Source: Mytilus galloprovincialis (Eukaryota). Taken from it: a stretch of DNA of 64,000 bases. The notes beneath the pieces were generated by a model. The model was not told the origin of the DNA. It saw only the letters and a list, made by a program, of their open reading frames with translations, and did not search any database. The stretch spans positions 69,910,935-69,974,934 of the forward strand of contig NC_134847.1 in the NCBI RefSeq assembly GCF_965363235.1. Direction: 5' to 3'. Within the stretch, counting starts at the first letter, position 1. Every line of letters begins with the position of its first letter. Positions 23,990-58,679 of the stretch are shown here, in pieces. A program made the position numbers and the translations under genes.

Positions 23990-24118
23990 ATGTCGATATT
24001 TAGTGATTGTCAAATTGTCCTTGATTTGACAACCAGTGTCAACTTTAAGAAAAAGACAGAAATCAGGAAAAAGATAACTAATAATGGAGGAGTTATATCA
24101 TATATTGTCACTAAAAAG
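23990..24118 (+). CDS. PARP4: PARP4-like exon 1: start codon and N-terminal half of the BRCT domain.
   Basis: MSIFSDCQIVLDLTTSVNFKKKTEIRKKITNNGGVISYIVTKK parallels the vault-PARP N-terminus (IF.NC.F.L...KK...I..NGG..S). Donor AAG|GTAAAC at 24119. Phase 0 joins exon 2 at 34164. Confidence 0.6.
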
Positions 24119-24175
24119 GTAAACATCATAGAACTCGCCATTTACCAATTTCCAGATTTTAGAATTTTATACTAA

Positions 24176-24240
24176 GAAGATGTGGGGTATGATTACAATG
24201 CGAAAACTATAATCCAACAGAATTCAAATGACCAATATAA
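24176..24240 (+). mobile_element. SINE-like family fragment (head only).
   Basis: gaagatgtggggtatgattacaatgcgaaaac. Confidence 0.35.
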
Positions 24241-25032
24241 CAACAATTTTACCTTTTTTTTTATTAGTTTTCATTCATCTGGACAGTTGAATTTAAATGT
24301 TATCAAGAAATAAAAAAATAAAAATTGAAGTATGAGAAACCATATAGATATTAGGGTTTCAATAAATGGCATAAACTGAGCTGGAGTTATTTCCCTTAGT
24401 CATCATTTTGAAGGTGGTTGATTTTAAACTAGATTTTTTAAGGAAAAAAAGTCAGTTATTGATTTGGTGATATATGGCGGTGAGTAGGCTGCCAAACAAT
24501 GTCCATTCATTAACATGCAAACGCTTTGACATAATTTTTCAAATTCAGATATGTTGTTTCAAACTCAGACCATTTGTTACAAAACCTGGATGTTTAAATG
24601 TTGCTCTCGAAAAAACATGGACAATGCAAATCACAAAATTTTAAGTTAAATACAGTCAAACCTGCTTAAGAGACCATCTGTATTAAGCAAAACCCTGTAT
24701 CATACGACCATAAATTTAGATCCCTCTAGCTGTAGTACATTTCATATAGTTTGAACCTGTAATAAAAGACTACATGTCTTCATGAGAGACCACTTTTTTG
24801 TTCTCCCTTAACTTTACTGGTCTCTAAAAACAGGTTTCACTGTACAATAATATTTTGTGACTTTTTTGCTCTAAACATGTATAGTATTCAAAATAAGATG
24901 GACAGTCACGAATAAGACTGTTATAATTAGGAAATAGCACTTGTTTTATCACGAAAAAAAAACCCCACAAGATCTGCATCCGAAAAAAAGTGGACGAATT
25001 CACTTGAAAAGAACACAATCTTTGCCAGACAC

Positions 25033-25055
25033 TATATATATATATATATATATAC
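25033..25055. repeat. (TA)n microsatellite.
   Basis: Read directly. Confidence 0.8.
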
Positions 25056-25157
25056 CTACTGTTCAAAGAGCATTTTTATTAGTTGCCCAAATTTCATTTC
25101 TTGGATTTAAAACTGTGAATTAAGAAATTATTGTGTGCATTTATATTATTATTGTGA

Positions 25158-26310
25158 CTTTTTATACGACTGCAAAAAATGTTTGAGGTCGTATATTGGT
25201 ATGACGTTGGCACATTGGTTTTCGCACTATCACTTTAGTTTTTGTAAATAGAAATCTATGAAAATTAAACGCAAGGTTTGTGACCACTAAAGGAAGGTTG
25301 GGATTGATTTTGGGAGTTTTGGTCCCAACAGTTTAGGAATTAGGGGCCAAAAAAGGGCCCAAATAAGCATTTTTCTTGGTTTTCGCACAATAACTTTAGT
25401 AAAAGTAAATAGAAATCTATGAAATTTAAACACAAGGTTTATGAACACAAAAGGAAGGTTGGAATTGATTTGGGAGTTTTGGTCTCAACAGTTTAGGAAT
25501 TAGGGGCCAAAAAGGGGCCCAAATAAGCATTTTTCTTGGTTTTGGCACCATAACTTTAGTATGAGTAAATAGAAATCTATGAAATTTAAACACCATAAAA
25601 GGAAGGTTGAGATTGATTTTGGGAGTTTTAGTCCCCACAGTTTAAGAATTAGGGGCCCAAAGGGTCCAAAATTAAACTTAGTTTGATTTCATCAAAAATG
25701 GAATAATTGGGGTTCTTTGATATGCCGAATCTAACTGTGTATGTAGATTCTTAATTTTTGGTCCTGTTTTCAAATTCGTCTACAATAAGGTCCAAGGGTC
25801 CAAAATTAAACTTAGTTTGATTTTAACAAAAATTGAATTCTTGGGGTTCTTTGATATGCTGAATTTAAACATGTACTTAGATTTTTGATTATGGGCCCAG
25901 TTTTCAAGTTGGTCCAAATCGTGGTCCAAAATTAAACTTTGTTTGATATCAACAAAAATTGAAACCTTGGGGTTCTTTGATATGCTGAATCTAAACATGT
26001 ATTTAGATTTTTGATTATAGGCCCAGTTTTCAAGTTGGTTCAAATCGGGGTCCAAAATTAAACTTTGTTTTATTTCAACAAAAATTGAATATATGGGGTT
26101 CTTTGATATATGCTGAATCTAACCATGCATTTAGAATTATGATATTTGGGCCCGGTTATCAAATTGGTCCACATTGAGGTCTAAAGGGTCCAAAATTGAA
26201 CTTTATTTGATTTCATCAAAAATTGAATTCTTTGGGTTCTTTGATATGCTGAATCTAACCATGTAATTAGATTTTGGATATTGGACCATAATAGGTAAAT
26301 GTCCAATTTA
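25158..26310 (+). mobile_element. Satellite-bearing non-autonomous composite element, copy 1. This is the 5' part; its 3' tail resumes at 33647-33756 after the nested Ngaro.
   Basis: Starts ctttttatacgacYgcaaaaa...ggtcgtata (9-bp hairpin) as in copy 2 at 50643. Contains satellite I (units of about 150-171 bp, 25215-25640) and satellite II (units of about 126-138 bp, 25662-26290). Both satellites carry GGGCCC. Confidence 0.6.
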
Positions 26311-27320
26311 TACAAAATTCTCAGAAATGATCCTGAATATGTTTAATTGTCATTTGTTCCATGTTTGCAATGTGTTCTGATTCTTTGTAAATATTTTTTA
26401 GGGTAAATTTATTTCTGTTTGATGTGATGCTGTTCTAATCTTATTTTAATTGTCTTTTGTTTATACTGTATCTTTTCTGTGGTAATCTGTTATGTAATAG
26501 GGAAATGTGTGTTAACACCTGAGCAAACATCCAACCTCATATCTTCTTGCAAATTCTTTGACCTGACAATTAAACCATCCTGATCTAACTTTCGGTCCTA
26601 TATTTTAATTTTGCTAATAAATGTGTCAGTGAACAAAATCCTCAAAGTCACACATAATGAGTTCATATTAATTTCATAGTAATTTAAATAATTTAATTAC
26701 CCCTGATTTCTTTCAGAACACACTGTTTGAACTCATGATATGTAAAATTAAGGATTTAGTGCTCACATTATTATCAACCTAATTTTTCCTGCTATCACCT
26801 ATCTTGTAAATAAACTCCTGGGAAATACTGTGTAGCAATGCCATTGGTATCCATGTTTGAATTAAACATAAATCATAATTTAATTGCAACTTTTATTTTA
26901 TATATATACATCACGATTATAATTTGGCCCTTGGGGAAACTACTCAGCTAAAAAATTTAATTTTTTGCTCCATGCCTAAACCAAGAGCCTAGCTATGTGC
27001 ATACTGAAAAGTAGCAAAGTATAGACCCCTGGCTTGACATCACACCAATCCAATTGGAACGATGGTTCAAAATAAATGCATGAGGCTATCAGGAAGCCTA
27101 TGAGGCTATCATTCCTAGAGGCTATCATGCCTATGAGGCTATGAGGAAGCCTATAATGAGACAATGAGGAAGCCTGTAAGGAGGCTATGAGGAAGCCTAG
27201 TAGTGTTGATGTTGAATTGGTGTTGGAATGAATTTGTATGAAATTTGACAGTTTATCCCCAGAAATTCTTGGGGGATGAGTGAAATTTTTGAAACAACCA
27301 GTGATAAAATTTCATAAATG
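26311..27320 (-). repeat. Ngaro terminal direct repeat, copy at the element 3' terminus. Contains ATGAGGCTATCA/GAGGAAGCCT subrepeats at 27087-27200.
   Basis: Identical, as read, to 27841-28856. Confidence 0.8.
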
Positions 27321-27398
27321 AAATCAATAAACATAATGCTGAGATTGCTTCCCCTGTCATGGCAATATTGAAGGTGAAAGGAGGGGTCGGTGGGAGGC

Positions 27399-27839
27399 AA
27401 GTTTTTAGCTAAAACCTATTAGCACTATTAGCCAAGATTATTCTATAACTGCTTAATCTGCATTTAGATAAATGAATACTCAAGGCAGCATACACAGGTT
27501 TTTAATACACAACTTCTTAATGGGATACTCCTAAGTGGGAGGAGTTAAAACTGCACCCAGATTAATGTATCAAGAAACAAAGGACAAAGGAAGCCAAATG
27601 CCACAAGTGGTCACTAATTAACAAGACATGTATATTTGTATTGGAACTGATGAAATTAGACCTCCTGCTAAGAACATGTGATAAACTTCATATCTAACTG
27701 ATTGACATATGATAATAAATCTGTTTCATCTCAACAGCAAAGAAAATACACATCCTGGGAAAATCCTAAAATAATGACTACTGAGTAATTAAAATCAAAT
27801 TATGTATAAACATACTTATATAACATATAAGTACCTATT
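27399..27839 (-). repeat. Ngaro internal copy of the 0.44-kb repeat, identical to 33203-33646.
   Basis: agtttttagctaaaacctattagcac...gtacctattta is present at both sites. Confidence 0.8.
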
Positions 27840-27840
27840 T

Positions 27841-28856
27841 ATACAAAATTCTCAGAAATGATCCTGAATATGTTTAATTGTCATTTGTTCCATGTTTGCA
27901 ATGTGTTCTGATTCTTTGTAAATATTTTTTAGGGTAAATTTATTTCTGTTTGATGTGATGCTGTTCTAATCTTATTTTAATTGTCTTTTGTTTATACTGT
28001 ATCTTTTCTGTGGTAATCTGTTATGTAATAGGGAAATGTGTGTTAACACCTGAGCAAACATCCAACCTCATATCTTCTTGCAAATTCTTTGACCTGACAA
28101 TTAAACCATCCTGATCTAACTTTCGGTCCTATATTTTAATTTTGCTAATAAATGTGTCAGTGAACAAAATCCTCAAAGTCACACATAATGAGTTCATATT
28201 AATTTCATAGTAATTTAAATAATTTAATTACCCCTGATTTCTTTCAGAACACACTGTTTGAACTCATGATATGTAAAATTAAGGATTTAGTGCTCACATT
28301 ATTATCAACCTAATTTTTCCTGCTATCACCTATCTTGTAAATAAACTCCTGGGAAATACTGTGTAGCAATGCCATTGGTATCCATGTTTGAATTAAACAT
28401 AAATCATAATTTAATTGCAACTTTTATTTTATATATATACATCACGATTATAATTTGGCCCTTGGGGAAACTACTCAGCTAAAAAATTTAATTTTTTGCT
28501 CCATGCCTAAACCAAGAGCCTAGCTATGTGCATACTGAAAAGTAGCAAAGTATAGACCCCTGGCTTGACATCACACCAATCCAATTGGAACGATGGTTCA
28601 AAATAAATGCATGAGGCTATCAGGAAGCCTATGAGGCTATCATTCCTAGAGGCTATCATGCCTATGAGGCTATGAGGAAGCCTATAATGAGACAATGAGG
28701 AAGCCTGTAAGGAGGCTATGAGGAAGCCTAGTAGTGTTGATGTTGAATTGGTGTTGGAATGAATTTGTATGAAATTTGACAGTTTATCCCCAGAAATTCT
28801 TGGGGGATGAGTGAAATTTTTGAAACAACCAGTGATAAAATTTCATAAATGGCCAT
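27841..28856 (-). repeat. Ngaro internal copy of the 1.01-kb repeat.
   Basis: Identical to 26311-27320. Duplicate ORFs 26976..27164 and 28507..28695 give the same peptide. Confidence 0.8.
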
Positions 28857-29079
28857 AACACAGATGGTAACAGCTGAGTGTCCCCAAGGATTTGTGAGGT
28901 TAGGGAGGGGGTACCTTCAATAAAGCCATGAAATAAAAAAAAAATAAAAAAATAATAAAAATAATAAATGTTATCACATAATAATACACAATATCAAAAT
29001 CAATTGTCAAACAAAAACAATATCATCTAGAATCTCTGTAAAAAACATGTGTATGGAATATTTGAAAATGAGCATGCCC

Positions 29080-30093
29080 TTAAATTCTACCTAACCTACT
29101 TTGAGCTGTTTTAATAGATGCTGGCGTTACCCTAATGTATCTGATGTAACTATCTGAAGTCCAGCGCCCTAATGTTTTTATCAAGTGATCTTCTATTTTT
29201 GCCTTACCAGCACTTGTAGCTGCCCCAATTCTAAAACTATGACCATTATAATGACTTGAGTTGAAACCACATATATCCAGTACTTTTTTGATACAAGTGA
29301 TGAAATATTGTCTCTCCAAAGGTTTCTTATCAATGGTTATGAAAAGTGGATCAGTTTGATTAGTAGGAGAAAATTCTTTCCTTATTTGTATATATTCTAA
29401 CAAAATTGTGTAAGGGCAGATAAGCTGACCTAATTTATGTAGCTGTAGATTTATGCCTTTTCTAAAAGGATCTGTTTTTGATTGTTTTAATTTCAAAACT
29501 ACTAAGTCTGAGTGAAATACAACATCTTCAATACATAAATTTATATGTGGATCAAACTGTGAGGCCTTTGACACTGTAAACTCGCCACATCTCAAAAATC
29601 CATAAAATGCGACAATGCATGCAGTTCTTAACATTAAATCAGTAAACTTGGAACAAAAACCTTTTCTCAAACAATTTACAATTTTTTCCAAAATTTCGAA
29701 AGTTATTGGTAATCTTATGTGATTTTTTGTTTTTTGCAGTCTTTTTACAGAATTTAAAACATAATCAAGTCTGATTAAAGGTGTATTATGAGCAGATTGT
29801 AAGGGATCATTTTGATTACCCTGTACATATTTATACCTAATTCCACATAAATATAATTTAATGGTAGAGTATTGTAAACTCAGAACTTTAAAGCAGTGGG
29901 CTATGAAATAAATTAAAATATCCTCAGAAATAGGAGGTAAATTAGAAAATTGAAAACCATTCAATAACATAAAAGTCTCAAATTTTCTGAACCCAGTATC
30001 ATAAACAGTTCTTGTAGTATTAGCAATAGCACTGTTCCAAAGTTCATTCACTGCTTGATTTAGGACCACATTACATCTGAGCTGCTTGGGCAC
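29080..30093 (-). CDS. Ngaro tyrosine recombinase (phage-integrase-type YR), 337 aa.
   Basis: Box I FLRCGEF. Box II GHSFRIGAATSA. LGRWTSDSYIRYIR carries the Tyr nucleophile, so the R-H-R-Y set is present. Overlaps the RT ORF by 34 nt. Confidence 0.85.
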   Translation of the reverse strand: MPKQLRCNVVLNQAVNELWNSAIANTTRTVYDTGFRKFETFMLLNGFQFSNLPPISEDILIYFIAHCFKVLSLQYSTIKLYLCGIRYKYVQGNQNDPLQSAHNTPLIRLDYVLNSVKRLQKTKNHIRLPITFEILEKIVNCLRKGFCSKFTDLMLRTACIVAFYGFLRCGEFTVSKASQFDPHINLCIEDVVFHSDLVVLKLKQSKTDPFRKGINLQLHKLGQLICPYTILLEYIQIRKEFSPTNQTDPLFITIDKKPLERQYFITCIKKVLDICGFNSSHYNGHSFRIGAATSAGKAKIEDHLIKTLGRWTSDSYIRYIRVTPASIKTAQSRLGRI

Positions 30094-31553
30094 TTCATTG
30101 GATGTTGTGCTGCACTGGGAGCTAGTTTGCGGAATCTGTCTATCTGTAAACGAGATAGAGCATCACTTATATCATTCTGATATCCTGGAACATGTTTGGC
30201 ACTAAAATGAAAGTTGTATTTACAAGCACACCATGTAAGTTTCCTCATTAATTTCATTATTTGTAAACACTTTGAACGGCCCTTTTTTACTATAGCCACT
30301 GTAGCTTCATTGTCACACCAGAAAAGAATGCGTTTTGTTGTCCACTGTGAGCCCCACAGTATTGCGGATACTACAATGGGGTATAATTCAAGAAAAGCCA
30401 TTGAAAATGTTTTGTCAGGATAAGCAATGTTTGATGGCCATGATGAATAAAACCATTCTCCCTTGAAATATCCACCAAATCCTTTTGTTGATGAGGCATC
30501 AGTAAAAAGTTCCATATCATAACTTGAGTAAAATTGTCTACTGTAAAACATGTTCACACCATTCCAGCTGCTCAGAAAAAGTAACCAAAATTCTAGGTCA
30601 ACACGGCATTCCTTATCTAATTTAACATAATGATGCAAATCATTGACAGTAGTGGACAGCCCTATGAGGTATGAAACAAAGGATCTACCAGGTAAAATGA
30701 CACGTGAAGCAAAGTTTAAGTGACCCAAAAGCTGCAACAATTCCCTTTTTGTACAAGATTTTTTCCTGCATAATTTTTTGATGAATTCACAAATGCGATC
30801 AACTTTATTAAGAGGTAGTCGAGCTTCCATTTTTTCAGAATCTAGAATAATACCCAAATATTCTAAACATTTTACAGGACCTATTGTCTTATGTTTTGCT
30901 ATAGGAATGTTCAGTTTTTTGAAAATCATCATCATTATAGCCATAGTCCTCTCACCATCAGCATCTGGTGGATCTATGGTTAGGAAATCATCCAATAAAT
31001 GCAAAATGCTATTAACTTTGTAATTGTTTTCTGCAATATGACACAAAGCTTGGGATAAATGGTCAAAAATTTTGGGGCTTGAACGACATCCAAAAGTTAA
31101 ACGGACATAAAAATAATACATTTTTTCCCATTTTATGCAGAAAAGAGGCCACTGACTTGGTACAATTGGACAATTTTTGAACGCGTCGGATATGTCGAAC
31201 TTGCAAAGCCAGGAATTTCTTCCAAATTTCAAAATAACATCAATGGCGTCATCTATTCTAACATAAGACATTGAGCAATCCTGTTTGTCAATAAGATCAT
31301 TAATACTTAGATGTTTATCATCATTATGTGGTGAAGATAAGTCCAATATTAAACGCTTTTTACCAGAATATTTCCCTTCTGCAATACCAATTGGGCTTAC
31401 CCTATAATTTTGAAAAGGGGGATCCTTAAAAGGCCCATACAAGAAACCTTTAAAAACTTCTTTCTCTATCAAATCAGAAACCACATCTGGTTGTGTCCTA
31501 GCAGATAAACTATTCCTACATTCTTTTGTAGGTAAATCTGTTGTAGATACCAT
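30060..31553 (-). CDS. Ngaro reverse transcriptase plus RNase H, 497 aa, with no methyltransferase domain.
   Basis: RT blocks LILDLS, KFDISDAFKNCPI, LTFGCRSSPKIF, HLLDDFL (YxDD equivalent). RNase H FTDASSTKGFGGYF...WCDNEATV. The ORF is too short for a DIRS-type methyltransferase, so Ngaro rather than DIRS. Confidence 0.85.
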   Translation of the reverse strand: MVSTTDLPTKECRNSLSARTQPDVVSDLIEKEVFKGFLYGPFKDPPFQNYRVSPIGIAEGKYSGKKRLILDLSSPHNDDKHLSINDLIDKQDCSMSYVRIDDAIDVILKFGRNSWLCKFDISDAFKNCPIVPSQWPLFCIKWEKMYYFYVRLTFGCRSSPKIFDHLSQALCHIAENNYKVNSILHLLDDFLTIDPPDADGERTMAIMMMIFKKLNIPIAKHKTIGPVKCLEYLGIILDSEKMEARLPLNKVDRICEFIKKLCRKKSCTKRELLQLLGHLNFASRVILPGRSFVSYLIGLSTTVNDLHHYVKLDKECRVDLEFWLLFLSSWNGVNMFYSRQFYSSYDMELFTDASSTKGFGGYFKGEWFYSSWPSNIAYPDKTFSMAFLELYPIVVSAILWGSQWTTKRILFWCDNEATVAIVKKGRSKCLQIMKLMRKLTWCACKYNFHFSAKHVPGYQNDISDALSRLQIDRFRKLAPSAAQHPMKCPSSSDVMWS

Positions 31554-31682
31554 AGTATCAAATCCTTTCTCTAAGCCATTGCATAAATAGTTAACAGATT
31601 TTTTGTCAGGATGAGAAATTAATTCTTTTGCAAGTATAATAACATTAATTGGAGTAGTAGCCAGATATGGGAAATCATGTAG

Positions 31683-33083
31683 TCATTGACCTTGCTTATT
31701 TGTTGTTATTTTCTCAAACTTTTGTGAAGAGTTTACTGTATGTGGCTTAGATTGTACTTCAGTCCTACCTTGAGAGGGGAAAACTTTTTGACAAGATAAT
31801 AGGGTATGACCAGCGACTTTACATCTGCTACAGATATGTGAAAAATGACAAAAACTCCTGGTACAACCCCTACTGGTATTAAAATTATTGCAAACCTCCC
31901 GCCCAGAATGATAAATTTTCTTTCTACCTAACTTATCAGTAGTGTCTACCTGCCTTGATACTTTATCTGGGTAGTCTTGATATGTCATGGAGGTTTGCAT
32001 AGGACAAAAAGCAGTAGTGTGATCAACCAAATTACAAATTTTGCAAACATTTACATTCCCACCAGCAACTATTAATGAAAGAAGATCCCTATCTCTTTTG
32101 CTCCAGTCAACCTTAATCCTTCTCTCCCTTAAAAGAGCTGCTGATTTTGCAGAAAACAATTTATGGTAATCATAAAATCTGTCACCATAAAAATTACTAA
32201 TATCTATAATCTCATCTTCATAAGCATCTAGCTCTGCTCTACGGTCAGGGTAAACTGATGACATGACCCTCTTAAACTTGCCAAATGCCTTAATGAATTC
32301 TTGAATTGTGAGTTTTCTATTCAGACGGGGATCTGGCTTCCCAGAAATATTTAACTCTAACCCATTAGCTGCAACAGAGTGAATTTGGGGAGTTTCATAG
32401 TTTGGGATAAGCAGAGATGCCAAATTAACATCCTTACCGTCAATGATTTGCTTTTGAATAGAAGGAGATATAATGTCCACATTAGAATATTCATCCGAAC
32501 GCACTCCACATGAAACATTTCCAACTTGTGGTCCTGAGATGAAAGATGCATGCTCTTGTGTATTTCCATGTAAAACAGTATTATTTCCTCTGTTAGAAAT
32601 TTCACTCCTATTCCCAATCCCTGCATGGTTGTACCACTGTTGAAGGTTGAATTCGCGATCTCTACCTGTGTCATGAGTACAATTGTCTCTGTAAATTAGC
32701 TGTTTAAAGGTCTCTTGAAGTCCTTCAAAACACTGAGCTATGTTCCTGTCTGTTCCACCATTTGAAACACTGCTTCTGTGTTGATGCACTGATTCTGCTA
32801 AGGTAATTGGAAGAGTGCTCTCTGGTGAGGAATCTGTGTTAATCTCATCACTAATGGTGTCTGTCTGTTGTGTCTCTAAAGATGTTACTCCATCAAAACA
32901 ATTCTCTAAATAAAGTTGTTTTAACACTTGTTTTGACATACCAGAAGGTGTTCTTATTCCCTTTTTGTTAAGTTCTTCTTTTAGTTTGTTTATTGTCCAA
33001 TTAGAAGGGTTATTAGAATCCCATTGGGTCTCATACGGAGAACTCCTAGTTTTCCTTCGAACACCTTTTCCTCTGCCAGACAT
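31683..33083 (-). CDS. Ngaro Gag-like protein, 466 aa, with an N-terminal SAP-like motif and two CCHC zinc knuckles.
   Basis: INKLKEELNKKGIRTPSGMSKQVLKQLYL (SAP-like). CKICNLVDHTTAFC and CSRCKVAGHTLLSC (C-x2-C-x4-H-x4-C). Basic N-terminus. Confidence 0.75.
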   Translation of the reverse strand: MSGRGKGVRRKTRSSPYETQWDSNNPSNWTINKLKEELNKKGIRTPSGMSKQVLKQLYLENCFDGVTSLETQQTDTISDEINTDSSPESTLPITLAESVHQHRSSVSNGGTDRNIAQCFEGLQETFKQLIYRDNCTHDTGRDREFNLQQWYNHAGIGNRSEISNRGNNTVLHGNTQEHASFISGPQVGNVSCGVRSDEYSNVDIISPSIQKQIIDGKDVNLASLLIPNYETPQIHSVAANGLELNISGKPDPRLNRKLTIQEFIKAFGKFKRVMSSVYPDRRAELDAYEDEIIDISNFYGDRFYDYHKLFSAKSAALLRERRIKVDWSKRDRDLLSLIVAGGNVNVCKICNLVDHTTAFCPMQTSMTYQDYPDKVSRQVDTTDKLGRKKIYHSGREVCNNFNTSRGCTRSFCHFSHICSRCKVAGHTLLSCQKVFPSQGRTEVQSKPHTVNSSQKFEKITTNKQGQ

Positions 33084-33202
33084 TTTGTTGTCAGTTAATC
33101 CAAAATAATGTTTATTGTTTCAGGTTATATAGTTTGAATTATATTTAGTTGTTTAAAAACTGTCATATAGCTTTTGTAAAGTAATCCAAACACTGAAAGT
33201 TC

Positions 33203-33646
33203 AAGTTTTTAGCTAAAACCTATTAGCACTATTAGCCAAGATTATTCTATAACTGCTTAATCTGCATTTAGATAAATGAATACTCAAGGCAGCATACACA
33301 GGTTTTTAATACACAACTTCTTAATGGGATACTCCTAAGTGGGAGGAGTTAAAACTGCACCCAGATTAATGTATCAAGAAACAAAGGACAAAGGAAGCCA
33401 AATGCCACAAGTGGTCACTAATTAACAAGACATGTATATTTGTATTGGAACTGATGAAATTAGACCTCCTGCTAAGAACATGTGATAAACTTCATATCTA
33501 ACTGATTGACATATGATAATAAATCTGTTTCATCTCAACAGCAAAGAAAATACACATCCTGGGAAAATCCTAAAATAATGACTACTGAGTAATTAAAATC
33601 AAATTATGTATAAACATACTTATATAACATATAAGTACCTATTTAA
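33203..33646 (-). repeat. Ngaro 5'-terminal copy of the 0.44-kb repeat.
   Basis: Matches 27399-27839. Confidence 0.8.
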
Positions 33647-46200: not shown

Positions 46201-46427
46201 AAAATCAGTAGGTGCACACCAAAAAAGCACAAGAAGCAAACAGTGCATTTATAGTTGTTCTTCTTCTAGGGGTAACAGTTAGGCCTACAATGCTGAGCAA
46301 AGAAACTCCCACCCTTCTGCAATTCCAAGACAACCACCAGCACCGGTCCTAGTAAAGTTTTGTGTACATACCACAGTATATTGTACAATTTAATTATATG
46401 TTACAATTTTTATTTTAATTTATACAG

Positions 46428-49961: not shown

Positions 49962-50117
49962 GATGTATTTACTGTCAGTGTGGGTAATTTGCCACCAGGG
50001 TGTGTGGCCCTTATCAAAATAACTTATGTATCAGAATTACAAGTAGAAGGAGAATTGATCAACTTCACAATTCCTGGATCTGTGGCTCCTTGGAAACAGG
50101 AAGCCAGTAATACTGAA
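49962..50117 (+). CDS. PARP4: PARP4-like exon 15: VIT.
   Basis: DVFTVSVGNLPPGCVALIKITYVSELQVEGELINFTIPGSVAPWKQEASNTE. gtttcttgcag / GTAAGG. Confidence 0.65.
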
Positions 50118-50430: not shown

Positions 50431-50520
50431 GATGATGACAGCTGTACCATCCAAGTGTCAATACAGATGCCATTTGATATCAGAACAGTAACATGTCCAA
50501 CTCATAAAATTATGAAAAAG
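50431..50520 (+). CDS. PARP4: PARP4-like exon 16.
   Basis: DDDSCTIQVSIQMPFDIRTVTCPTHKIMKK. tattacag / GTAAGT. Confidence 0.6.
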
Positions 50521-51107
50521 GTAAGTAACTCTCTTTATGTTGCTTCAAAAAAATTTCTGTGCATGGTTTTATTTTTCAGCTATGGAAAGCTTTCAAATTT
50601 TGACAAATTGAGTTTTTTGAAATGTCTGATATGTTCAAGCTCCTTTTTATACGACCGCAAAAATTGAAAATTTTTTGGTCGTATATTGGTATCACGTTGG
50701 CATCAGCGTCGGCGTCATCAAAGATATTTGGTTTTCGCACTCTAACTTTAGTAAAAGTAAACAGAAATCTATGAAATATAAACCTGACCATAAAAGGAAG
50801 GTTGGGATTGATTTTGGGTGTTTTGGTCCCAACAGTTTAGGAATTAGGGACCAAAAACAGATCCCAAATAAGCATTTTTCTTGGTTTTTGCACAATAACT
50901 TTAGTATAAGTTAATAGAAATCTATGAAATTTTAACACAAGGTTTATGACCACAAAAGGAAGGTTTGGATTGATTTTGGGAGTTTTGGTGACAATGAATT
51001 AGGGGCCAAAAGGGTCCAAAAGTAACTTGTTTGATTTCATCAAAAATGAATTATTGGGGTTCTTTGATATGCCAAATCTAACCGTGTATTCAGATTCTTA
51101 ATTTTTA

Positions 51108-51402
51108 TGCCCCACCTACGATAGTAGAGGGGCATTATGTTTTCTGGTCTGTGCGTCCGTTCGTTCGTCCGTCCATCTGTTCCTTCGTCCGTCTGTCCCT
51201 CTTCAGGTTAAAGTTTTTGGTCAAGGTAGTTTTTGACGAAGTTGAAGTCCAATCGACTTCAAACTTAGTATACATGTTCCCTATGATATGATCTTTTTAA
51301 TTTTAATGCCAAATTAGAGGGTTTACCCCAATTTCACGGTCCACTGAACATAGAAAATGATGGTGCGAGTGGGGCATTCGTGTACTGGGGACACATTCTT
51401 GT
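51108..51402. mobile_element. Small insertion of about 295 bp inside copy 2, with 9-bp inverted termini ATGCCCCAC / GTGGGGCAT. Absent from copy 1.
   Basis: Copy 1 reads ttaatttttggtcctgttttcaaatt at 25751-25776 without it. The 5' hairpin is atgccccacctacgatagtagaggggcat. Confidence 0.45.
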
Positions 51403-51574
51403 TGGTCCTGTTTTCAAATTGGTCTGCATTAAGGCCCAAAGGGTCCAAAATTAAACTAAGCTTGATTTGAACAAAAATTGAGGTTCTTTGATATGCTGAA
51501 TCTGAACATGTACTTAAATTTTAAATTATGGGCCCAGTTTTCAAGTTGGTCCAAACCGAGGTCCAAAATTATTA

Positions 51575-51835
51575 TATTTAGTATCGTGCAATAGCAAGAA
51601 ATTTTCAATTGCACAGTATTCCGCAATAGCAAAAAATCTTCAATTGCACAGTATTGTGCAATAGCAAGAAATTTTCAATTGCACAGTATTGCGCAATAGC
51701 AAGAAATATTCAATTGCACAGTATTGTGCAATAGCAAGAAATATCTAATTGCACAACATTGCGCAATAGCAAGATATTTTCAATTTCATAGTTTTGCGCA
51801 ATAGCAAGAAATATTCAATTGCACAGTATTGTCCC
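51575..51835. repeat. About eight tandem copies of a 33-bp unit AATTGCACAGTATTGYGCAATAGCAAGAAATWTTC. Each unit holds a TTGCACA...TGYGCAA palindrome.
   Basis: Read directly. Present only in copy 2 of the composite element. Confidence 0.6.
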
Positions 51836-52582
51836 GTTTTCAAATTGGTCTACATTAAGGTCCAAAGGGTCAAAAATTAAACTTTGTTTGATTTCAACAA
51901 AAATTGAATATATGGGGTTCTTCAATATGCTGAATCTTACCATGTATTTAGATTTTTAATATTTAGGCCCGGTTATCAAATTGGTCCACATTGAGGTCTA
52001 AAGGGTCTAAAATTGAACATTATTTGATTTCATCAAAAATTGAATTCTTGGGGTTCTATGATATGCTGAATCTAACCATGTATTTAGATTTTGGATATTG
52101 GACCATAATAGGTAAATGTCCAATTTAAAATTTTTAAGTTTTTAAGTTTAAGTTCTTAGACCACATTCATTCTGTGTCAGAAACCTATATTGTGTTAATT
52201 ATTTGATCAAGCTTAAATGTTGTGTCCATACTTGCCCCAACTGTTCAGGGTTCGACCTCTGCGGTCATATAAAGCTGCGCCCTGCAGAGCATCTGGTTAG
52301 CTTGATGGATTAGAAAACCATAAGTATCATAAGATTTACAAATAGCATTCTTCAAATGTTATCTAGACTTTCTTTTTTATCAGCAGATTTGCTTTTTTGA
52401 TTGTGTTTTTGTTAACTTCATCATTTTCAATAGATATTTGAAGACTGCCAAATTTGACTCGTTTGATATTCAAAAGAATATTATGATAATAGCAACAGCA
52501 GTTAACAGTTCAGTTCTATTTTGAAAAAATACAAAATATGAATTGAATGGAATAATAATATAGCTTTATATTGATTAATTAC

Positions 52583-53574: not shown

Positions 53575-53712
53575 AGTACAGCTACAAGATGTACAGTTTC
53601 AATGGTGGAAGGACAGACTATTTCTGATGGATTTCAGTTACTGATAGGACTGGCTGAGATACATGTACCGAGGATGTGGGTCGAGGTAGATGGTGAAGGC
53701 AAACAAACTGAG
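53575..53712 (+). CDS. PARP4: PARP4-like exon 17.
   Basis: STATRCTVSMVEGQTISDGFQLLIGLAEIHVPRMWVEVDGEGKQTE. gtttcag / GTATGT. Confidence 0.6.
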
Positions 53713-54043: not shown

Positions 54044-54230
54044 GCAGCCATGTTGACATTTTATCCAGAATTTGAAGCAGCAGAAGACAATGAAACAGAG
54101 ATAATACTTGTCCTTGACCTTTCAAATTCAATGAAGGGGAAAGCTTTGCAGGAAGCTAAGAAAATTTTGCTGCTAACACTGAATCATCTGTCAGCACATA
54201 CTCTGTTTAACATTGTAGTATTTGGCACAT
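54044..54230 (+). CDS. PARP4: PARP4-like exon 18: start of the vWA domain.
   Basis: AAMLTFYPEFEAAEDNETEIILVLDLSNSMKGKALQEAKKILLLTLNHLSAHTLFNIVVFGT. tttttttag / GTAGGT. Phase-1 exit. Confidence 0.7.
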
Positions 54231-54590
54231 GTAGGTACTTGAGTAGATGTCTTAAGATATGATAATATGACTGTCTTGATCATCCTTACTTACATTTTAT
54301 GCTTGAGAAACTCTTGACAATGTCAAATGTAGCAATAAGTCAATGTCAAAGGTTGCAAGAGGTTAATGTCATAGGTAGCAAGAGGTCAATGTCAGAAGGT
54401 GCAAGAGGTTTATGTCACAGCTTTAAAAATATATCTATAACAATGCATCATCCTTTATGAATATGTCATCTGTAACTGTTCCTTAGTATTAATTTACAAT
54501 ATACATGTATGTAACAACAATGTCTATAAAGTTTCACATGTAATTATAAACTGTCATTATAAACAGGTTACAGAGAATTATTTCCTGCAG

Positions 54591-54640
54591 GCCAGAAAAA
54601 GTCCAAGTCAACGCTGAAAATTTCTGAGCAATTTGTTAAG
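54591..54640 (+). CDS. PARP4: PARP4-like exon 19. An alternative in-frame acceptor lies 24 nt upstream at 54567.
   Basis: CQKKSKSTLKISEQFVK from the ttatttcctgcag acceptor, or CYRELFPAGQKKSK... from aaacag. Both restore the frame. Donor GTATGT at 54641. Confidence 0.45.
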
Positions 54641-55318: not shown

Positions 55319-55506
55319 GATATCCAAGCCAACATGGGTAGCACAGAGGTATATCGTCCCCTCCACAGTTTCTTCCTCCTAAAGCCGGAGAACTCATTGA
55401 GAAATGTCTTTATATTATCTGACGGTCATATTAACAATGAGGAGACTACTCTTAAAGCTGTTCATGACAACTGTCAGCACACAAGAATCTTTACATTCGG
55501 TGTTAG
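55319..55506 (+). CDS. PARP4: PARP4-like exon 20: vWA domain.
   Basis: DIQANMGSTEVYRPLHSFFLLKPENSLRNVFILSDGHINNEETTLKAVHDNCQHTRIFTFGV. tgtttcag / GTAACT. Phase-2 exit. Confidence 0.65.
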
Positions 55507-55892: not shown

Positions 55893-55992
55893 TGCCATTG
55901 CTAACAAACATGTGCTGAAGGCTATGTCCAGACTTGGAGCAGGTTCTTTTGAATATTTTGATTCTCATGCAAAGTCAAAGTGGGAAAACAAG
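55893..55992 (+). CDS. PARP4: PARP4-like exon 21: vWA domain.
   Basis: SAIANKHVLKAMSRLGAGSFEYFDSHAKSKWENK. ctgtttcag / GTAGTT. Confidence 0.6.
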
Positions 55993-56294: not shown

Positions 56295-56459
56295 GTAAAA
56301 TCCCAAATTCAGAAGACCTCTCAGCCAGTGTTGACCTCTGTATCAGTTGCTTGGCAACAGTTTGATACTCCTCCTCCAGTTCAAGCTCCACAACAAATCA
56401 CAGCTCTGTTTAATGGCTCCAGACTTGTGGTATATGGATTTGTCAGCAATTGTAAAATG
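56295..56459 (+). CDS. PARP4: PARP4-like exon 22.
   Basis: VKSQIQKTSQPVLTSVSVAWQQFDTPPPVQAPQQITALFNGSRLVVYGFVSNCKM. tattgcag / GTAATT. Confidence 0.55.
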
Positions 56460-57190: not shown

Positions 57191-57271
57191 GCTACTTTAA
57201 AGGCAGAGATTGGTGGCCAAGAAATATCTACTGTTGTCTCTACGTCTGAGCTCAGTACTACACAAGGGCAG
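57191..57271 (+). CDS. PARP4: PARP4-like exon 23.
   Basis: ATLKAEIGGQEISTVVSTSELSTTQGQ. ttttatacag / GTAAGG. Confidence 0.55.
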
Positions 57272-57664
57272 GTAAGGATAATTTAACAACTGAAATTTCA
57301 TCAAAACTTTTCTTTGGGTTAGTATCCTCATTTAAAAAACATTTAAAGTGCATATATAGATTTTGGAAACTTTGAACACAAATCCTAACTTTCAGATCTG
57401 ACATTAGTAATATCATGTGTATAAACTTGATATTTTTATGTTCAATCTTTTTAGAAAACAATGGAGAAAATAAAATTGTTACAGTGATATTTGTCACAAC
57501 TGTTCCTTTAGGGGGGAAGTCAGAGCTTTATACTAAACTGTTTTGAAGACAACATGTTGACCACTAGATGTCATCTTTCTTTGTTATTGCCCTGCTGTCA
57601 TGTACCGAGAATCACCTTTTATTCATGAGATTGATATGATAATGTTGTTGTTTTTTTCTTGCAG

Positions 57665-57745
57665 AATCTCCACAGACTAACAGCTAAAGCAATAATCAGA
57701 GACTGGGAAGATGGAGTACTTTCCCCAGACAGTATTGACCATCAG
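57665..57745 (+). CDS. PARP4: PARP4-like exon 24.
   Basis: NLHRLTAKAIIRDWEDGVLSPDSIDHQ. ttcttgcag / GTAAAA. Confidence 0.55.
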
Positions 57746-58321
57746 GTAAAATTAAATGAATAAGGTAGAATCTGAACTTTAGTTTGGATGTGAATCATAA
57801 GAGACAGTTACTAATTTTACAAAATTTCTTGCAATAAAAACTACAACATTTCAGTACAACACCATTCATTTTTGTTGTAATAATTTTTTATAAAAAGAGG
57901 AGAACATTTTCAGTACTTTTAAAACTGACAAGACTAAGTGTTAGTTGAGACCCCTGCTACCAAAGTTGATATATTTGCTACTGCTCATGATCTATTAGCC
58001 AATCATACAGCATTCAGGAATTAGAGCATTTGGCTTTGAGTCAATAAATGTGTGTGAGTAGGGTTAGATATCATCCTGTACAGATACCTTGTGATCTTTA
58101 TCTTGTTAAAACTCATGCCCAAGATGTCATTCTATTACAAAACAGGGTTCATATTTGTATAGCAGTTAAACCTTTTACATCCTTATTTGCTGAAAATGAA
58201 AGTTCATGTTATAACTTAAACACCAGCTGCAAAATTGCATCTAGTATCCAAGCTCTTTATTTTGAGACATCTCTGTAATTACTGAGTCAGTTTTTGAATT
58301 ACTCTAGGAGGAATTATATAT

Positions 58322-58530
58322 ATATACTGTAAATTCAGAAATTATTGTGTGCATTTATTATTGTGATTTTGTCATTTTAGAATAAAATGCAATTTAATTT
58401 TTGAGATATTTAGAAAATTCCTATTTGATTCATATAATAAATTTCAAAATGCGAGTTTTAATTATTGTGATGATAAACCTGTTGCATTTTCGCAATAATA
58501 AAAACATCCCAAGGATTTCTGAATTTAAGG
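58322..58530. mobile_element. Second copy of the 38144-type MITE, in PARP4-like intron 24.
   Basis: actgtaaattcagaaattattgtgtgcattt...gcaataataaaaacatcccaaggatttctgaatttaagg. Confidence 0.5.
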
Positions 58531-58577
58531 TAATTTCTATGGATAAAGAAGTAGAATTATTTATGATTTGTTTGCAG

Positions 58578-58679
58578 TTGAAGAAGATGGACATGAAAGA
58601 CTATATAATAGAACTGAGTAAGAAATACTCTATAGTCACTCAGCTGACAAGTTTCATAGCCGTGGAGAAAAGAGAAAAG
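58578..58679 (+). CDS. PARP4: PARP4-like exon 25. The gene probably continues beyond this point, but later exons are not resolved.
   Basis: LKKMDMKDYIIELSKKYSIVTQLTSFIAVEKREK (TSFIAVE as in VIT-vWA proteins). tttgcag / GTAATA. Confidence 0.55.

What the first reader, a model, noticed from the sequence alone, without database searches (positions are those of the whole stretch)
23990..58679. PARP4 (vault PARP) ortholog with conserved H-Y-E triad and a 10-kb first intron that has become a transposon nest
The exon chain joins in phase as BRCT (exons 1-2), PARP helical and catalytic domain (exons 6-12), VIT (exons 13-16) and vWA (exons 18-21). That domain combination is unique to PARP4. The candidate catalytic residues are retained: His in LLFHAS, Tyr in GVYFAS, Glu in DDEYVIY. 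Intron 1 (24119-34163) holds the composite satellite element plus the nested Ngaro. The BRCT domain is split across that intron, so retroelement transcription is antisense to the host gene.
Basis: partly seen in the sequence, partly recalled or inferred. Interest (0 to 1): 0.5.

Follow-up and report, generated by a model that had tools for sequence, protein, structure and literature searches.

The report
Mussel PARP4 gene with transposon-filled intron
This is the first 25 coding exons of the already-annotated PARP4 (vault-type ADP-ribosyltransferase) gene of the Mediterranean mussel; its 10-kb first intron is large only because two ordinary mobile elements inserted there, and they are missing from another mussel genome.

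Summary
The observation and the interpretation both hold, but the result is ordinary.

**Gene model.** A spliced alignment recovers 25 GT-AG exons on the + strand (23990-58679). Their translation is 100% identical to residues 1-1173 of RefSeq XP_076077942.1, [quoted passage not shown].

**Domains.** The order is BRCT, WGR-like, helical + catalytic, VIT, vWA. It is collinear with human PARP4 (E = 4e-249). His443, Tyr483 and Glu553 sit in columns that are invariant across 15 orthologues.

**Intron 1 (24119-34163).**
- 86% of it is a Helentron-type non-autonomous element carrying satellite-like repeats (25164-33757).
- Nested inside that element is an intact 7.3-kb Ngaro tyrosine-recombinase retrotransposon (26311-33645), antisense to the gene.
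- The Ngaro has A1…B1A2B2 split repeats at 99.6-99.9% identity and no target-site duplication.
- The nest is haplotype-specific. A second M. galloprovincialis assembly has a 966-bp intron with neither element. M. edulis has the satellite element but an empty Ngaro site.

- H-Y-E does not imply poly-ADP-ribosylation.
- Exons 3-5 encode a WGR-like fold.
- The 54591 acceptor would delete a conserved ELFP motif.
- The C-terminal half, including the vault-docking region, lies outside the window.

Novelty: already known. Interest: low.

The parts
23990..24118 (+). PARP4 coding exon 1 (aa 1-43, N-terminal half of BRCT); ATG at 23990
   Evidence: Pfam BRCT aa 2-81
24119..34163 (+). Coding intron 1, 10,045 bp, GTAAAC...TTTACAG, phase 0; splits the BRCT domain
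   Evidence: The orthologous intron is 966 bp in L001 and 6,920 bp in L002
25164..33757 (+). HINE-like (Helentron-associated, MgE/pearl-type) non-autonomous element. Its own sequence is 25164-26310 and 33646-33757. It has a 5' subTIR ATACGACyGC with a nearby complementary IR, a 3' subTIR followed by a palindrome, sits in a T-run, and has no TSD. Boundaries are good to +/- 2 nt.
   Evidence: Empty site in L001. Present at the same site in L002. Feature list from PMC7492417
25215..26279 (+). Satellite-like tandem arrays inside the HINE: 160-bp unit x2.9 (25215-25661) and 126-bp unit x4.7 (25660-26279)
26311..33645 (-). Full-length Ngaro-type tyrosine-recombinase retrotransposon, 7,335 bp, antisense to PARP4, nested in the HINE; no TSD; ATTTA microhomology at both junctions
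33202..33645 (-). Ngaro split direct repeat A1 (5' end of the element)
   Evidence: 99.6% identical to A2; ends defined
31683..33083 (-). Ngaro ORF1, 466 aa, gag-like, with a CX2CX4HX4C zinc knuckle (CKICNLVDHTTAFC)
   Evidence: sequence read directly; no significant Pfam hit
30060..31553 (-). Ngaro ORF2, 497 aa, reverse transcriptase / RNase H; too short to hold a methyltransferase domain
   Evidence: RVT_1 37.1 bits against a cut-off of 29.6. 99%-identical relatives in Mytilus and 1149 homologues with E<1e-20, mostly ~500 aa
29080..30093 (-). Ngaro ORF3, 337 aa, tyrosine recombinase (LRCGE ... HSFRIGAAT ... GRW ... YIRY)
   Evidence: phrog_1 integrase E=1.8e-7; Pfam Phage_integrase E=1e-4, below the cut-off
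27842..28851 (-). Ngaro split direct repeat B1; abuts A2
   Evidence: 99.9% identical to B2 over 1018 bp; junction
27398..27841 (-). Ngaro split direct repeat A2
26311..27320 (-). Ngaro split direct repeat B2 (3' end of the element)
34164..34362 (+). Exon 2 (aa 44-110, C-terminal half of BRCT)
34866..35008 (+). Exon 3 (aa 110-157, start of the WGR-like domain)
35846..35980 (+). Exon 4 (aa 158-202, WGR-like)
36514..36666 (+). Exon 5 (aa 203-253, WGR-like)
37557..37694 (+). Exon 6 (aa 254-299, start of the helical domain)
38486..38653 (+). Exon 7 (aa 300-355, helical domain)
39240..39400 (+). Exon 8 (aa 356-409); followed by the weak but conserved donor ACA|GTTTGT at 39401
40308..40448 (+). Exon 9 (aa 409-456); catalytic His443 (codon 40408-40410)
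41011..41109 (+). Exon 10 (aa 456-489); catalytic Tyr483 (codon 41090-41092)
41480..41663 (+). Exon 11 (aa 489-550)
41935..46202 (+). 53-bp minisatellite, ~80 copies, 96% matches, filling most of intron 11 (41664-46427). Length-polymorphic: 1.5 kb in L001, 7.8 kb in L002
46428..46575 (+). Exon 12 (aa 551-600); catalytic Glu553 (codon 46434-46436)
47041..47174 (+). Exon 13 (aa 600-644, VIT start)
48039..48263 (+). Exon 14 (aa 645-719, VIT)
49962..50117 (+). Exon 15 (aa 720-771, VIT end)
50431..50520 (+). Exon 16 (aa 772-801)
50649..52297 (+). Second copy of the same HINE-like family, in intron 16 (50521-53574), without a Ngaro. It serves as a paralogous empty site for the Ngaro insertion
53575..53712 (+). 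Exon 17 (aa 802-847)
54044..54230 (+). Exon 18 (aa 848-910, vWA start)
54567..54640 (+). Exon 19 (aa 910-934, vWA). The acceptor at 54567 is the one used by both RefSeq isoforms. The in-frame AG at 54589-54590 would remove 8 aa, including the conserved ELFP
55319..55506 (+). Exon 20 (aa 935-997, vWA)
55893..55992 (+). Exon 21 (aa 997-1030, vWA end)
56295..56459 (+). Exon 22 (aa 1031-1085)
57191..57271 (+). Exon 23 (aa 1086-1112)
57665..57745 (+). Exon 24 (aa 1113-1139)
58578..58679 (+). Exon 25 (aa 1140-1173), donor GTAATA; last coding exon inside the window
58680..64000 (+). Start of intron 25; no further PARP4 coding sequence in the window. It holds two haplotype-specific insertions: a 1,496-bp TIR element at 58763-60258, and an insertion from 61147 to the window end

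Best explanation
The region holds the 5' 58% (coding exons 1-25, aa 1-1173 of 2036) of a Mytilus galloprovincialis PARP4 gene on the + strand.

**Protein.** The encoded part has the PARP4 architecture: BRCT, WGR-like fold, helical regulatory domain, ADP-ribosyltransferase fold with His443-Tyr483-Glu553, VIT and vWA. By homology it is an NAD+-dependent ADP-ribosyltransferase. It is most likely mono-ADP-ribosylating, as human PARP4 is. The rest of the protein is encoded beyond the window and carries an actin-like fragment and a weakly conserved MVP-interaction (vault-docking) domain.

**Intron 1.** The intron is 10 kb because of two successive insertions, which I infer were neutral.
1. A Helentron-type non-autonomous element carrying 160-bp and 126-bp satellite-like repeats inserted into a T-run by rolling-circle transposition.
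2. An intact Ngaro retrotransposon then integrated into that element by tyrosine-recombinase crossover at an ATTTA microhomology. It lies in the orientation opposite to PARP4.

Both insertions are structural polymorphisms rather than fixed features. Splicing simply removes them.

**Shown here:** exon structure, domain content, element anatomy, orientation, presence or absence in other assemblies.

**Inferred:** enzymatic activity, vault association, neutrality of the insertions, any antisense transcription.
For: **Gene model and annotation**
- The exon model is 100% identical to XP_076077942.1 over aa 1-1173. Isoform X1 is identical in this part.

**Domains**
- Pfam gives BRCT 1.9e-11, PARP catalytic 3.5e-30, VIT 1e-36 and VWA_3 1.9e-21, in that order.
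- Human PARP4 is the best PDB match: 4.3e-249 for the full length and 1.2e-71 for HD-ART.
- The H, Y and E columns are invariant in 15 orthologues from molluscs to coelacanth.
- An AF2 model of aa 100-262 has pLDDT 86.5. Its top 24 Foldseek PDB hits are all PARP1/2/3 WGR domains.

**Ngaro**
- ORFs run gag, RT/RH, YR on the minus strand.
- The A1...B1A2B2 repeats are 99.6% and 99.9% identical.
- The empty site CCAATTTA|AAAA is present in M. edulis and in the intron-16 paralogous copy, and there is no TSD.

**HINE**
- It has a subTIR plus IR, tandem repeats, and a 3' subTIR plus palindrome.
- The empty site is present in the second M. galloprovincialis assembly, whose intron 1 is 966 bp and free of gaps.
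Against: - No expression or splice-junction data could be consulted. Usage of the weak donor at 39401 and continued correct splicing across the 10-kb intron rest on the RefSeq model and on conservation.
- The Pfam regulatory-domain hit is below its cut-off (21 bits against 26.8). Pfam WGR does not hit at all. Those two domains rest on the alignment to human PARP4 and on a predicted fold.
- Vault docking is doubtful. Similarity to the human MINT domain is weak (E=9.6e-5 over 63 residues).
- PMC12280208 reports that the MVP residues contacting PARP4 are conserved only in vertebrates.
- M. galloprovincialis has a second, 85%-identical PARP4 lineage. This gene is therefore a co-orthologue, not a strict 1:1 orthologue.
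Confidence: 0.93

Rival explanations
1. The locus is a decaying or non-functional PARP4 paralogue. A second PARP4 gene does the work, and the heavy transposon load in introns 1, 11, 16 and 25 reflects relaxed constraint.
For: - A second PARP4 lineage exists in Mytilus. P0019/P0020 (M. galloprovincialis) is 93% identical to M. trossulus P0004 but only 85% identical to this gene.
- Several haplotype-specific insertions are present. One begins 19 bp upstream of the exon-26 acceptor.
Against: - All 25 exons are open, in phase, and have GT-AG borders.
- The catalytic and structural motifs are invariant.
- The protein is 98% identical to its M. edulis and second M. galloprovincialis counterparts, which fits purifying selection.
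- The insertions are all intronic and are absent from other haplotypes.
- The available model of the other lineage, P0019, is itself truncated: it starts at aa 459 and lacks the His.
Confidence: 0.04
2. The 10-kb intron is an assembly artefact: repeats were wrongly joined into the scaffold, and the true intron is about 1 kb as in the other M. galloprovincialis assembly.
For: - Another assembly of the same species has a 966-bp intron 1.
- Mytilus assemblies are known to be difficult because of high heterozygosity.
Against: - Both insertions have the precise junctions expected of real transposition. The Ngaro sits cleanly between CCAATTTA and AAAAATTT with a complete A1...B1A2B2 structure.
- The HINE has matching termini and is present at the same site in M. 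edulis.
- A misjoin would not reproduce element termini exactly at an empty-site breakpoint.
Confidence: 0.03
3. The antisense Ngaro is functionally relevant. Its promoter drives antisense RNA across exon 1 and the PARP4 promoter, or its insertion changes PARP4 expression or isoform use in carriers of this haplotype.
For: - The element is intact: three open ORFs and near-identical repeats.
- It belongs to a family with 99%-identical copies elsewhere in Mytilus, so it may be transcriptionally competent.
- It points toward exon 1, 2.2 kb away.
Against: - No expression data are available.
- Antisense orientation of intronic retroelements is the commonly tolerated configuration, because it avoids sense-strand polyadenylation and splice signals (general knowledge).
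- The RefSeq model splices across it.
Confidence: 0.1

Closest known systems
Human PARP4 / vault PARP (PDB 8sx1, 8swy, 9bw6/9bw7; PMC10711553, PMC12280208)
   Same: - Same domain order: BRCT, WGR, HD, ART, VIT, vWA.
- Collinear alignment over ~1200 residues (E=4.3e-249).
- H-Y-E triad in the same motifs: LLHGS/LLFHAS, GIYFS/GVYFAS, DDEFVVY/DDEYVIY.
   Different: - About 39% identity to vertebrate orthologues.
- The mussel protein is longer (2036-2069 aa against 1724).
- Its C-terminal half carries a proline-rich region and a 60-residue actin N-terminal fragment.
- It has only a weak match to the MINT vault-docking domain.
- Activity and vault association are untested.
RefSeq XP_076077942.1 / XP_076077939.1, PARP4-like isoforms X2 and X1 of Mytilus galloprovincialis
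   Same: Identical over aa 1-1173. This is the same gene in the same assembly.
   Different: Nothing in the coding part. The RefSeq record continues with aa 1174-2036, encoded beyond the window.
Ngaro retrotransposons (DIRS order; Goodwin and Poulter; summarised in PMC13465315)
   Same: - gag, RT/RH and YR gene order.
- Split direct repeats A1...B1A2B2.
- No methyltransferase domain.
- Integration without target-site duplication.
   Different: - A 77-nt unique spacer lies between A2 and B2.
- Family assignment rests on structure, not on a phylogeny with reference Ngaro sequences.
HINE / Helentron-associated interspersed elements with satellite-like repeats (Cg_HINE of Crassostrea gigas, PMC7492417; MgE of M. 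galloprovincialis, Kourtidis et al. 2006, as cited there)
   Same: - 5' subTIR with a nearby complementary IR.
- Internal arrays of ~126-160-bp repeats.
- 3' subTIR followed by a palindrome.
- No TSD.
- Dispersed copies in introns (a second copy sits in intron 16).
   Different: - No microsatellite was identified in the left module.
- It carries two different repeat units in one element.
- Sequence identity to MgE itself could not be tested, because no reference sequence was available.

Membership tests
PARP4 (vault PARP, PARP clade 5) | N-terminal BRCT domain | tested here: met
   Pfam BRCT 44.5 bits (cut-off 21.3) at aa 2-81; BRCT_2 40.2 bits (cut-off 27.3)
PARP4 (vault PARP, PARP clade 5) | WGR-like domain between BRCT and the catalytic region (W-G-R residues themselves are not conserved in PARP4; PMC10711553) | tested here: met
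   There is no Pfam WGR hit. However, the AF2 model of aa 100-262 has pLDDT 86.5, and its 24 best Foldseek PDB matches are all WGR domains of PARP1/2/3 (prob 0.99-1.00, E 1.6e-3 to 0.09, TM-score on target 0.5-0.6 for the isolated-WGR chains).
PARP4 (vault PARP, PARP clade 5) | Helical domain plus ART fold with an H-Y-E triad | tested here: met
   - Pfam PARP 105.5 bits.
- Aligns over 316 residues to the human PARP4 HD-ART crystal chain 8sx1 (1.2e-71).
- H443, Y483 and E553 are invariant in 15 orthologues.
- Pfam PARP_reg alone is below its cut-off (21 bits against 26.8).
PARP4 (vault PARP, PARP clade 5) | VIT followed by vWA, C-terminal to the catalytic domain | tested here: met
   VIT 125.9 bits at aa 629-741; VWA_3 77.2 bits at aa 866-1016
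PARP4 (vault PARP, PARP clade 5) | Closest relative is PARP4, not PARP1/2/3 or an inter-alpha-trypsin-inhibitor heavy chain | tested here: met
   Human PARP4 scores 4.3e-249 against 1e-21 for the next family, PARP2. Every listed hit that a source names as a numbered PARP is named PARP4 or PARP4-like, apart from one Mytilus edulis entry labelled PARP2_3_4; the rest are plain poly [ADP-ribose] polymerase or hypothetical entries.
PARP4 (vault PARP, PARP clade 5) | C-terminal MVP-interaction (MINT) domain | tested here: inconclusive
   - It is not encoded in the window.
- In the full-length RefSeq protein, precomputed Pfam lists PF26156. The M. edulis locus has a PF26156 PARP4_MVP-ID call just downstream.
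- Direct comparison gives only E=9.6e-5 to human residues 1575-1637.
- The local Pfam scan found nothing.
PARP4 (vault PARP, PARP clade 5) | Physical residence in vault particles; ADP-ribosyltransferase activity | not testable with these tools
   This needs biochemistry. PMC12280208 reports that the MVP residues binding PARP4 are conserved only in vertebrates.
Ngaro (YR retrotransposon, DIRS order) | Reverse transcriptase / RNase H ORF | tested here: met
   RVT_1 37.1 bits (cut-off 29.6). An RNase H-type TDAS motif can be read in ORF2.
Ngaro (YR retrotransposon, DIRS order) | Tyrosine recombinase instead of a DDE integrase | tested here: met
   - phrog_1 integrase E=1.8e-7 over aa 31-332.
- Pfam Phage_integrase E=1e-4, below its cut-off.
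- The motifs LRCGE, HSFR, GRW and YIRY are present.
- A related M. edulis protein is named Tyr recombinase domain-containing (P0135).
Ngaro (YR retrotransposon, DIRS order) | Split direct repeats: A1 at the 5' end, B1-A2-B2 at the 3' end (PMC13465315) | tested here: met
   A1 33202-33645 matches A2 27398-27841 at 99.6%. B1 27842-28851 matches B2 26311-27320 at 99.9%. B1 and A2 abut.
Ngaro (YR retrotransposon, DIRS order) | No methyltransferase domain (distinguishes it from DIRS and PAT) | tested here: met
   Only RVT_1 hits ORF2, which is 497 aa. There is no further ORF between RT/RH and YR.
Ngaro (YR retrotransposon, DIRS order) | Integration without target-site duplication | tested here: met
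   Filled and empty sites were compared in M. edulis and in the intron-16 paralogous copy. Only a shared ATTTA lies at the crossover.
Ngaro (YR retrotransposon, DIRS order) | Phylogenetic placement of RT/YR with reference Ngaro elements | not tested
   No reference Ngaro sequences (Repbase) were available in the tools.
HINE (Helentron non-autonomous element) | 5' subTIR with an adjacent complementary IR; 3' subTIR followed by a palindrome (PMC7492417) | tested here: met
   - 5' end: ATACGACCGC...GCGGTCGTAT, perfect in the M. edulis copy.
- 3' end: GCAGTCGTAT / GCGGCCGTAT lying inside the CTCTGCRG...CTGCRGAG inverted repeat.
HINE (Helentron non-autonomous element) | Internal short array of satellite-like tandem repeats | tested here: met
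   160-bp x2.9 and 126-bp x4.7
HINE (Helentron non-autonomous element) | No TSD; insertion in a T-rich target | tested here: met
   The empty site GATTTTTT|AAGAATGG in L001 compares with CTTTTT[element]TAAGAATGG in the window. The second copy is also flanked by T5 / TT with no duplication.
HINE (Helentron non-autonomous element) | Microsatellite in the left module; link to an autonomous Helentron with Rep/helicase | not tested
   No microsatellite was looked for systematically. No autonomous partner is present in the window.

The most novel reading that the evidence does not exclude
The Ngaro in intron 1 is a currently active copy (three intact ORFs, terminal repeats 99.6-99.9% identical, private to this haplotype). 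With the other haplotype-specific insertions, especially the one starting 19 bp upstream of the exon-26 acceptor, it makes the PARP4 alleles of M. galloprovincialis differ in expression or splicing. Separately, the mussel PARP4 may not be a vault enzyme at all. Its docking domain is barely conserved, and the MVP contact residues are reported as vertebrate-specific.
Probability: 0.15. Interest if true: 0.35.

Novelty: already known. Interest (0 to 1): 0.15.

Why it matters
It matters little beyond confirming annotation.
- The useful by-product is a cleanly resolved three-state series (empty, HINE only, HINE + Ngaro). It gives exact integration junctions for a Ngaro and a HINE in a bivalve.
- It also illustrates how much intron length at one Mytilus locus varies between haplotypes and between two Mytilus species. 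Intron 1 is 1, 7 or 10 kb; intron 11 is 2, 5 or 12 kb; intron 25 is 1, 8 or more than 5 kb.
- The Ngaro copy could serve as a reference full-length element for bivalve repeat libraries.

Tried and rejected
- **Later exons in the window.** I searched 58680-64000, and all six frames of the whole window, for aa 1151-2036 of the RefSeq protein at E up to 10. Only the known last exon matched. The C-terminal MVP-interaction region is therefore not in the window.
- **Pfam on the C-terminal 191 aa and on aa 110-299.** No hits even at E up to 10. MINT rests on precomputed annotations and a weak PDB match; WGR rests on a predicted fold.
- **Solved-structure sequence search with the Ngaro recombinase ORF.** Nothing meaningful came back. 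PHROGs gave the integrase hit instead.
- **Alternative acceptor at 54591.** The AG exists, but using it would delete YRELFPAG, whose ELFP is conserved across phyla. Neither RefSeq isoform uses it.
- **Actin-like fragment in the C-terminal half as a possible novelty.** Rejected: actin domains appended to PARP4-like proteins are already described (PMC4245714).
- **The skewed 8-16 kb region as a satellite related to the intron-11 array.** Rejected: it is an open reading frame of Thr/Ser-rich repeats, and blastn shows no similarity between the two.
- **Rfam and tRNA scans of the window.** No hits.
- **Bacterial promoter/terminator scan.** Not run, because it does not apply to a eukaryotic locus.

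Full report
**Source of the window.** It is AT-rich animal DNA (about 32% G+C). A rough concatenation of open + strand segments between 23990 and 58679 was searched against the protein collection. The best hit, at 98% identity, was [quoted passage not shown] (P0001, 2036 aa, on a 91-Mb contig). Next came PARP4 entries from other Mytilus species, oysters, gastropods, cnidarians, hemichordates and fishes. The exact accession is XP_076077942.1. Isoform X1 (XP_076077939.1 to XP_076077941.1) differs only by a 33-residue insert near the C-terminus.

**Exon chain.** tblastn of P0001 against the window gave 25 collinear blocks covering residues 1-1173. I refined every junction by enumerating GT/GC donors and AG acceptors and scoring the joined translation against P0001.
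- The best solution at all 24 junctions uses GT-AG.
- The assembled 3,519-nt coding sequence has no stop. It translates to a peptide 1173/1173 identical to P0001.
- The 39401 donor is the weakest of the 25 (5 of 9 matches to MAG|GTRAGT). It is nevertheless identical in a second M. galloprovincialis assembly and in M. edulis.
- A second AG at 54589-54590 would give an in-frame acceptor at 54591. It would delete YRELFPAG, and ELFP is conserved from sponge to fish. Neither RefSeq isoform uses it.
- Residues 1174-2036 have no match anywhere in the window.

**Domains.**
- Pfam on the full RefSeq protein gives BRCT (aa 2-81), PARP catalytic (394-571), VIT (629-741) and VWA_3 (866-1016), all well above their cut-offs. 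It also finds an actin fragment at 1320-1383, outside the window.
- The regulatory helical domain scores below the Pfam cut-off. The region aa 260-575 nevertheless aligns end to end with the human PARP4 HD-ART crystal chain 8sx1 (E = 1.2e-71). PARP2 is the next family at 4.7e-24.
- Full-length human PARP4 aligns collinearly, 1-1207 against 3-1217, with E = 4.3e-249.
His443, Tyr483 and Glu553 are invariant in a 15-sequence alignment.
An AlphaFold2 model of aa 100-262, built from a 22-sequence alignment, reached pLDDT 86.5. Its 24 best Foldseek matches in the PDB are all WGR domains of PARP1, PARP2 or PARP3.
- That matches the BRCT-WGR-CAT organisation described for human PARP4 (PMC10711553).
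- The same paper shows that human PARP4 keeps H-Y-E but only mono-ADP-ribosylates, because its acceptor site is disrupted. Triad retention therefore says 'probably active', not 'polymerase'.

**Intron 1.** The median of the 24 introns in the window is 632 bp, and intron 1 is 10,045 bp. Self-comparison and ORF listing resolve it as follows.
- *HINE-like element.* A + oriented element spans 25164-33757. It carries a 160-bp x2.9 array and a 126-bp x4.7 array.
  - It begins ATACGACTGC...GGTCGTAT, a 5' subterminal repeat with an adjacent complementary copy. It ends with a matching 3' subterminal repeat inside a CTCTGCGG...CTGCAGAG palindrome.
  - These are the defining substructures of HINE, the non-autonomous Helentron elements that carry satellite-like repeats in bivalves (PMC7492417). 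That paper groups the M. galloprovincialis element MgE with them.
  - A second copy of the family lies in intron 16 (50649-52297).
- *Nested retroelement.* A 7,335-bp retroelement on the minus strand sits inside the first copy at 26311-33645.
  - ORF1 (33083-31683) is gag-like and has a CCHC knuckle.
  - ORF2 (31553-30060) is RT/RNase H (RVT_1 above its cut-off).
  - ORF3 (30093-29080) is a tyrosine recombinase. It hits phrog_1 integrase at 1.8e-7 and Pfam Phage_integrase at 1e-4. The LRCGE, HSFR, GRW and Y motifs are present.
  - In element orientation the repeats are arranged A1 (33645-33202), ORFs, B1 (28851-27842), A2 (27841-27398), a 77-nt spacer, B2 (27320-26311). The A copies are 99.6% identical and the B copies 99.9%.
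  - Split direct repeats of this form without a methyltransferase domain define Ngaro (PMC13465315). DIRS and Ngaro types are reported at low copy number in bivalves (PMC10294476).
  - The RT ORF has 99%-identical relatives in Mytilus data and more than a thousand homologues of about 500 aa.
- Together the two elements make up 85.6% of intron 1.

**Comparison with other assemblies.** The look-up of encoding contigs returned the orthologous loci of a second M. galloprovincialis assembly (GCA_900618805.1, L001) and of M. edulis (GCA_905397895.1, L002).
- *Intron 1 in L001.* It is 966 bp, with GT and AG in place, and the only assembly gap is 39 kb away. Neither element is present. The empty site reads GATTTTTT|AAGAATGG, where the window has CTTTTT[HINE]TAAGAATGG.
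- *Intron 1 in L002.* It is 6,920 bp. The HINE is present at the same site at 91% identity, but the Ngaro is absent.
- *Ngaro junctions.* The M. edulis sequence and the intron-16 copy read GTCCAATTTA|AAAATTTT. The window reads GTCCAATTTA[TACAAAA...CCTATTTA]AAAAATTT. The internal A2|B1 junction of the element, which mimics the circle junction, reads CCTATTTA|TACAAAA. Integration thus looks like a reciprocal crossover at a shared ATTTA with no duplication, as expected for a tyrosine recombinase.
- *Order of events.* The HINE inserted first: it is old enough to be shared with M. edulis, yet still polymorphic or lost in one M. galloprovincialis haplotype. The Ngaro inserted recently.
- *Other introns* vary in the same way.

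| Intron | Window | L001 | L002 |
|---|---|---|---|
| Intron 1, length | 10,045 bp | 966 bp | 6,920 bp |
| Intron 11, 53-bp minisatellite array | 4.27 kb | 1.5 kb | 7.8 kb |
| Intron 25, length | >5.3 kb | ~8.3 kb | ~1.0 kb |

- Window 58763-60258 is a 1,496-bp element with 12-bp terminal inverted repeats and a 6-bp duplication. It is absent from both other assemblies.
- At 61147 another insertion begins and runs to the window end.
- In L001 and L002 that empty site lies 19 bp upstream of the acceptor of the next exon, which starts DEVIQADGPS.
- This is why the next exon, and with it the whole C-terminal half, falls outside the window.

**Vault association.**
- The MINT domain of human PARP4 (residues 1562-1724) docks it in the vault (PMC12280208).
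- The mussel C-terminus matches human residues 1575-1637 only weakly (E = 9.6e-5).
- Precomputed Pfam annotations list PF26156 (PARP4_MVP-ID) for P0001 and for the gene call just downstream in M. edulis. The local Pfam scan found nothing.
- PMC12280208 also reports that the MVP residues contacting PARP4 are conserved only in vertebrates.
- 'Vault PARP' is therefore a reasonable label by homology but is unproven for the mussel. None of that region is in the window.

**Paralogy.** M. galloprovincialis P0019/P0020 and M. trossulus P0004 form a second lineage. They are 93% identical to each other and 85-86% identical to this gene. The window gene is therefore one of at least two PARP4 co-orthologues. 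Independent PARP4 duplications in other animals are already recorded (PMC4245714).

**Verdict.**
- The gene is already annotated. The domain set is the canonical one. Appended actin fragments are known.
- Intronic, antisense, polymorphic transposon insertions are the normal state of a repeat-rich, highly heterozygous bivalve genome.
- Nothing here would surprise a specialist. The only modest value is the precisely resolved Ngaro and HINE insertion series.

Noticed in passing
window 8702-14443 (+), repeats to ~15640: A single open frame of more than 1,913 aa made of ~121-aa Thr/Ser-rich repeats (363-bp period, 9 near-identical copies at 12007-15266). It has strong strand composition skew and no Pfam hit. 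It looks like a mucin-type exon of an upstream gene, not a non-coding satellite.
   Followed up: partly
window 5163-5510 (+): An ORF with a PAN/Apple domain (PAN_1, E=2.1e-6). It may be an exon of the same upstream mucin-like gene.
   Followed up: partly
window 16931-17557 (+): A reverse-transcriptase fragment (RVT_1, E=3e-20) between the mucin-like gene and PARP4. It is a remnant of another retroelement.
   Followed up: partly
window 41935-46202 (intron 11): A 53-bp minisatellite with ~80 copies and 96% matches, with marked GC and AT skew. It separates the Tyr and Glu exons of the catalytic domain. Array length is 4.3 kb here, 1.5 kb in a second M. galloprovincialis assembly and 7.8 kb (interrupted) in M. 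edulis.
   Followed up: yes
window 58763-60258 (intron 25): A 1,496-bp non-autonomous element with 12-bp terminal inverted repeats (CATACCTGCCAA) and a 6-bp target duplication (TGTTAC). It is absent from L001 and L002. It contains an internal palindromic stretch that gives mirror ORFs on both strands (59436-59771).
   Followed up: partly
window 61147-64000 (intron 25): An unclassified insertion starts right after a TA at 61146 (CAGTGAGTTGACTG...) and runs off the window. In the other two assemblies the uninterrupted site lies only 19 bp upstream of the acceptor of the next PARP4 exon. In this haplotype the branch-point region of that exon must therefore lie within or beyond the inserted DNA.
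   Followed up: partly
window 2877-3336 and 49283-49746; 38139-38350 and 58320-58527: Two further dispersed repeat pairs, at 89% and 80% identity. Each has a copy in a PARP4 intron (intron 14; introns 6 and 24). They were not classified.
   Followed up: no
P0001 aa 1317-1376 (outside the window; single exon at L002 52730-53119): The C-terminal half of the mussel PARP4 contains a 60-residue copy of the actin N-terminus (E~1e-19 to actins). Pfam Actin hits recur in PARP4 of sponge, cnidarians, hemichordate, echinoderm and other bivalves. Actin domains in PARP4-like proteins were already noted by Perina et al. 2014 (PMC4245714).
   Followed up: partly
P0019/P0020 and P0004 (other loci): A second PARP4 lineage exists in Mytilus: 93% identity between M. 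galloprovincialis P0019 and M. trossulus P0004, but only 85-86% to the window gene. This points to a duplication older than the species complex, or to very divergent haplotypes.
   Followed up: partly
window 23970-23989: A pyrimidine tract plus CAG (tttttttcttcag) lies 7 nt upstream of the ATG. It looks like a splice acceptor, so there may be a non-coding first exon further upstream.
   Followed up: no
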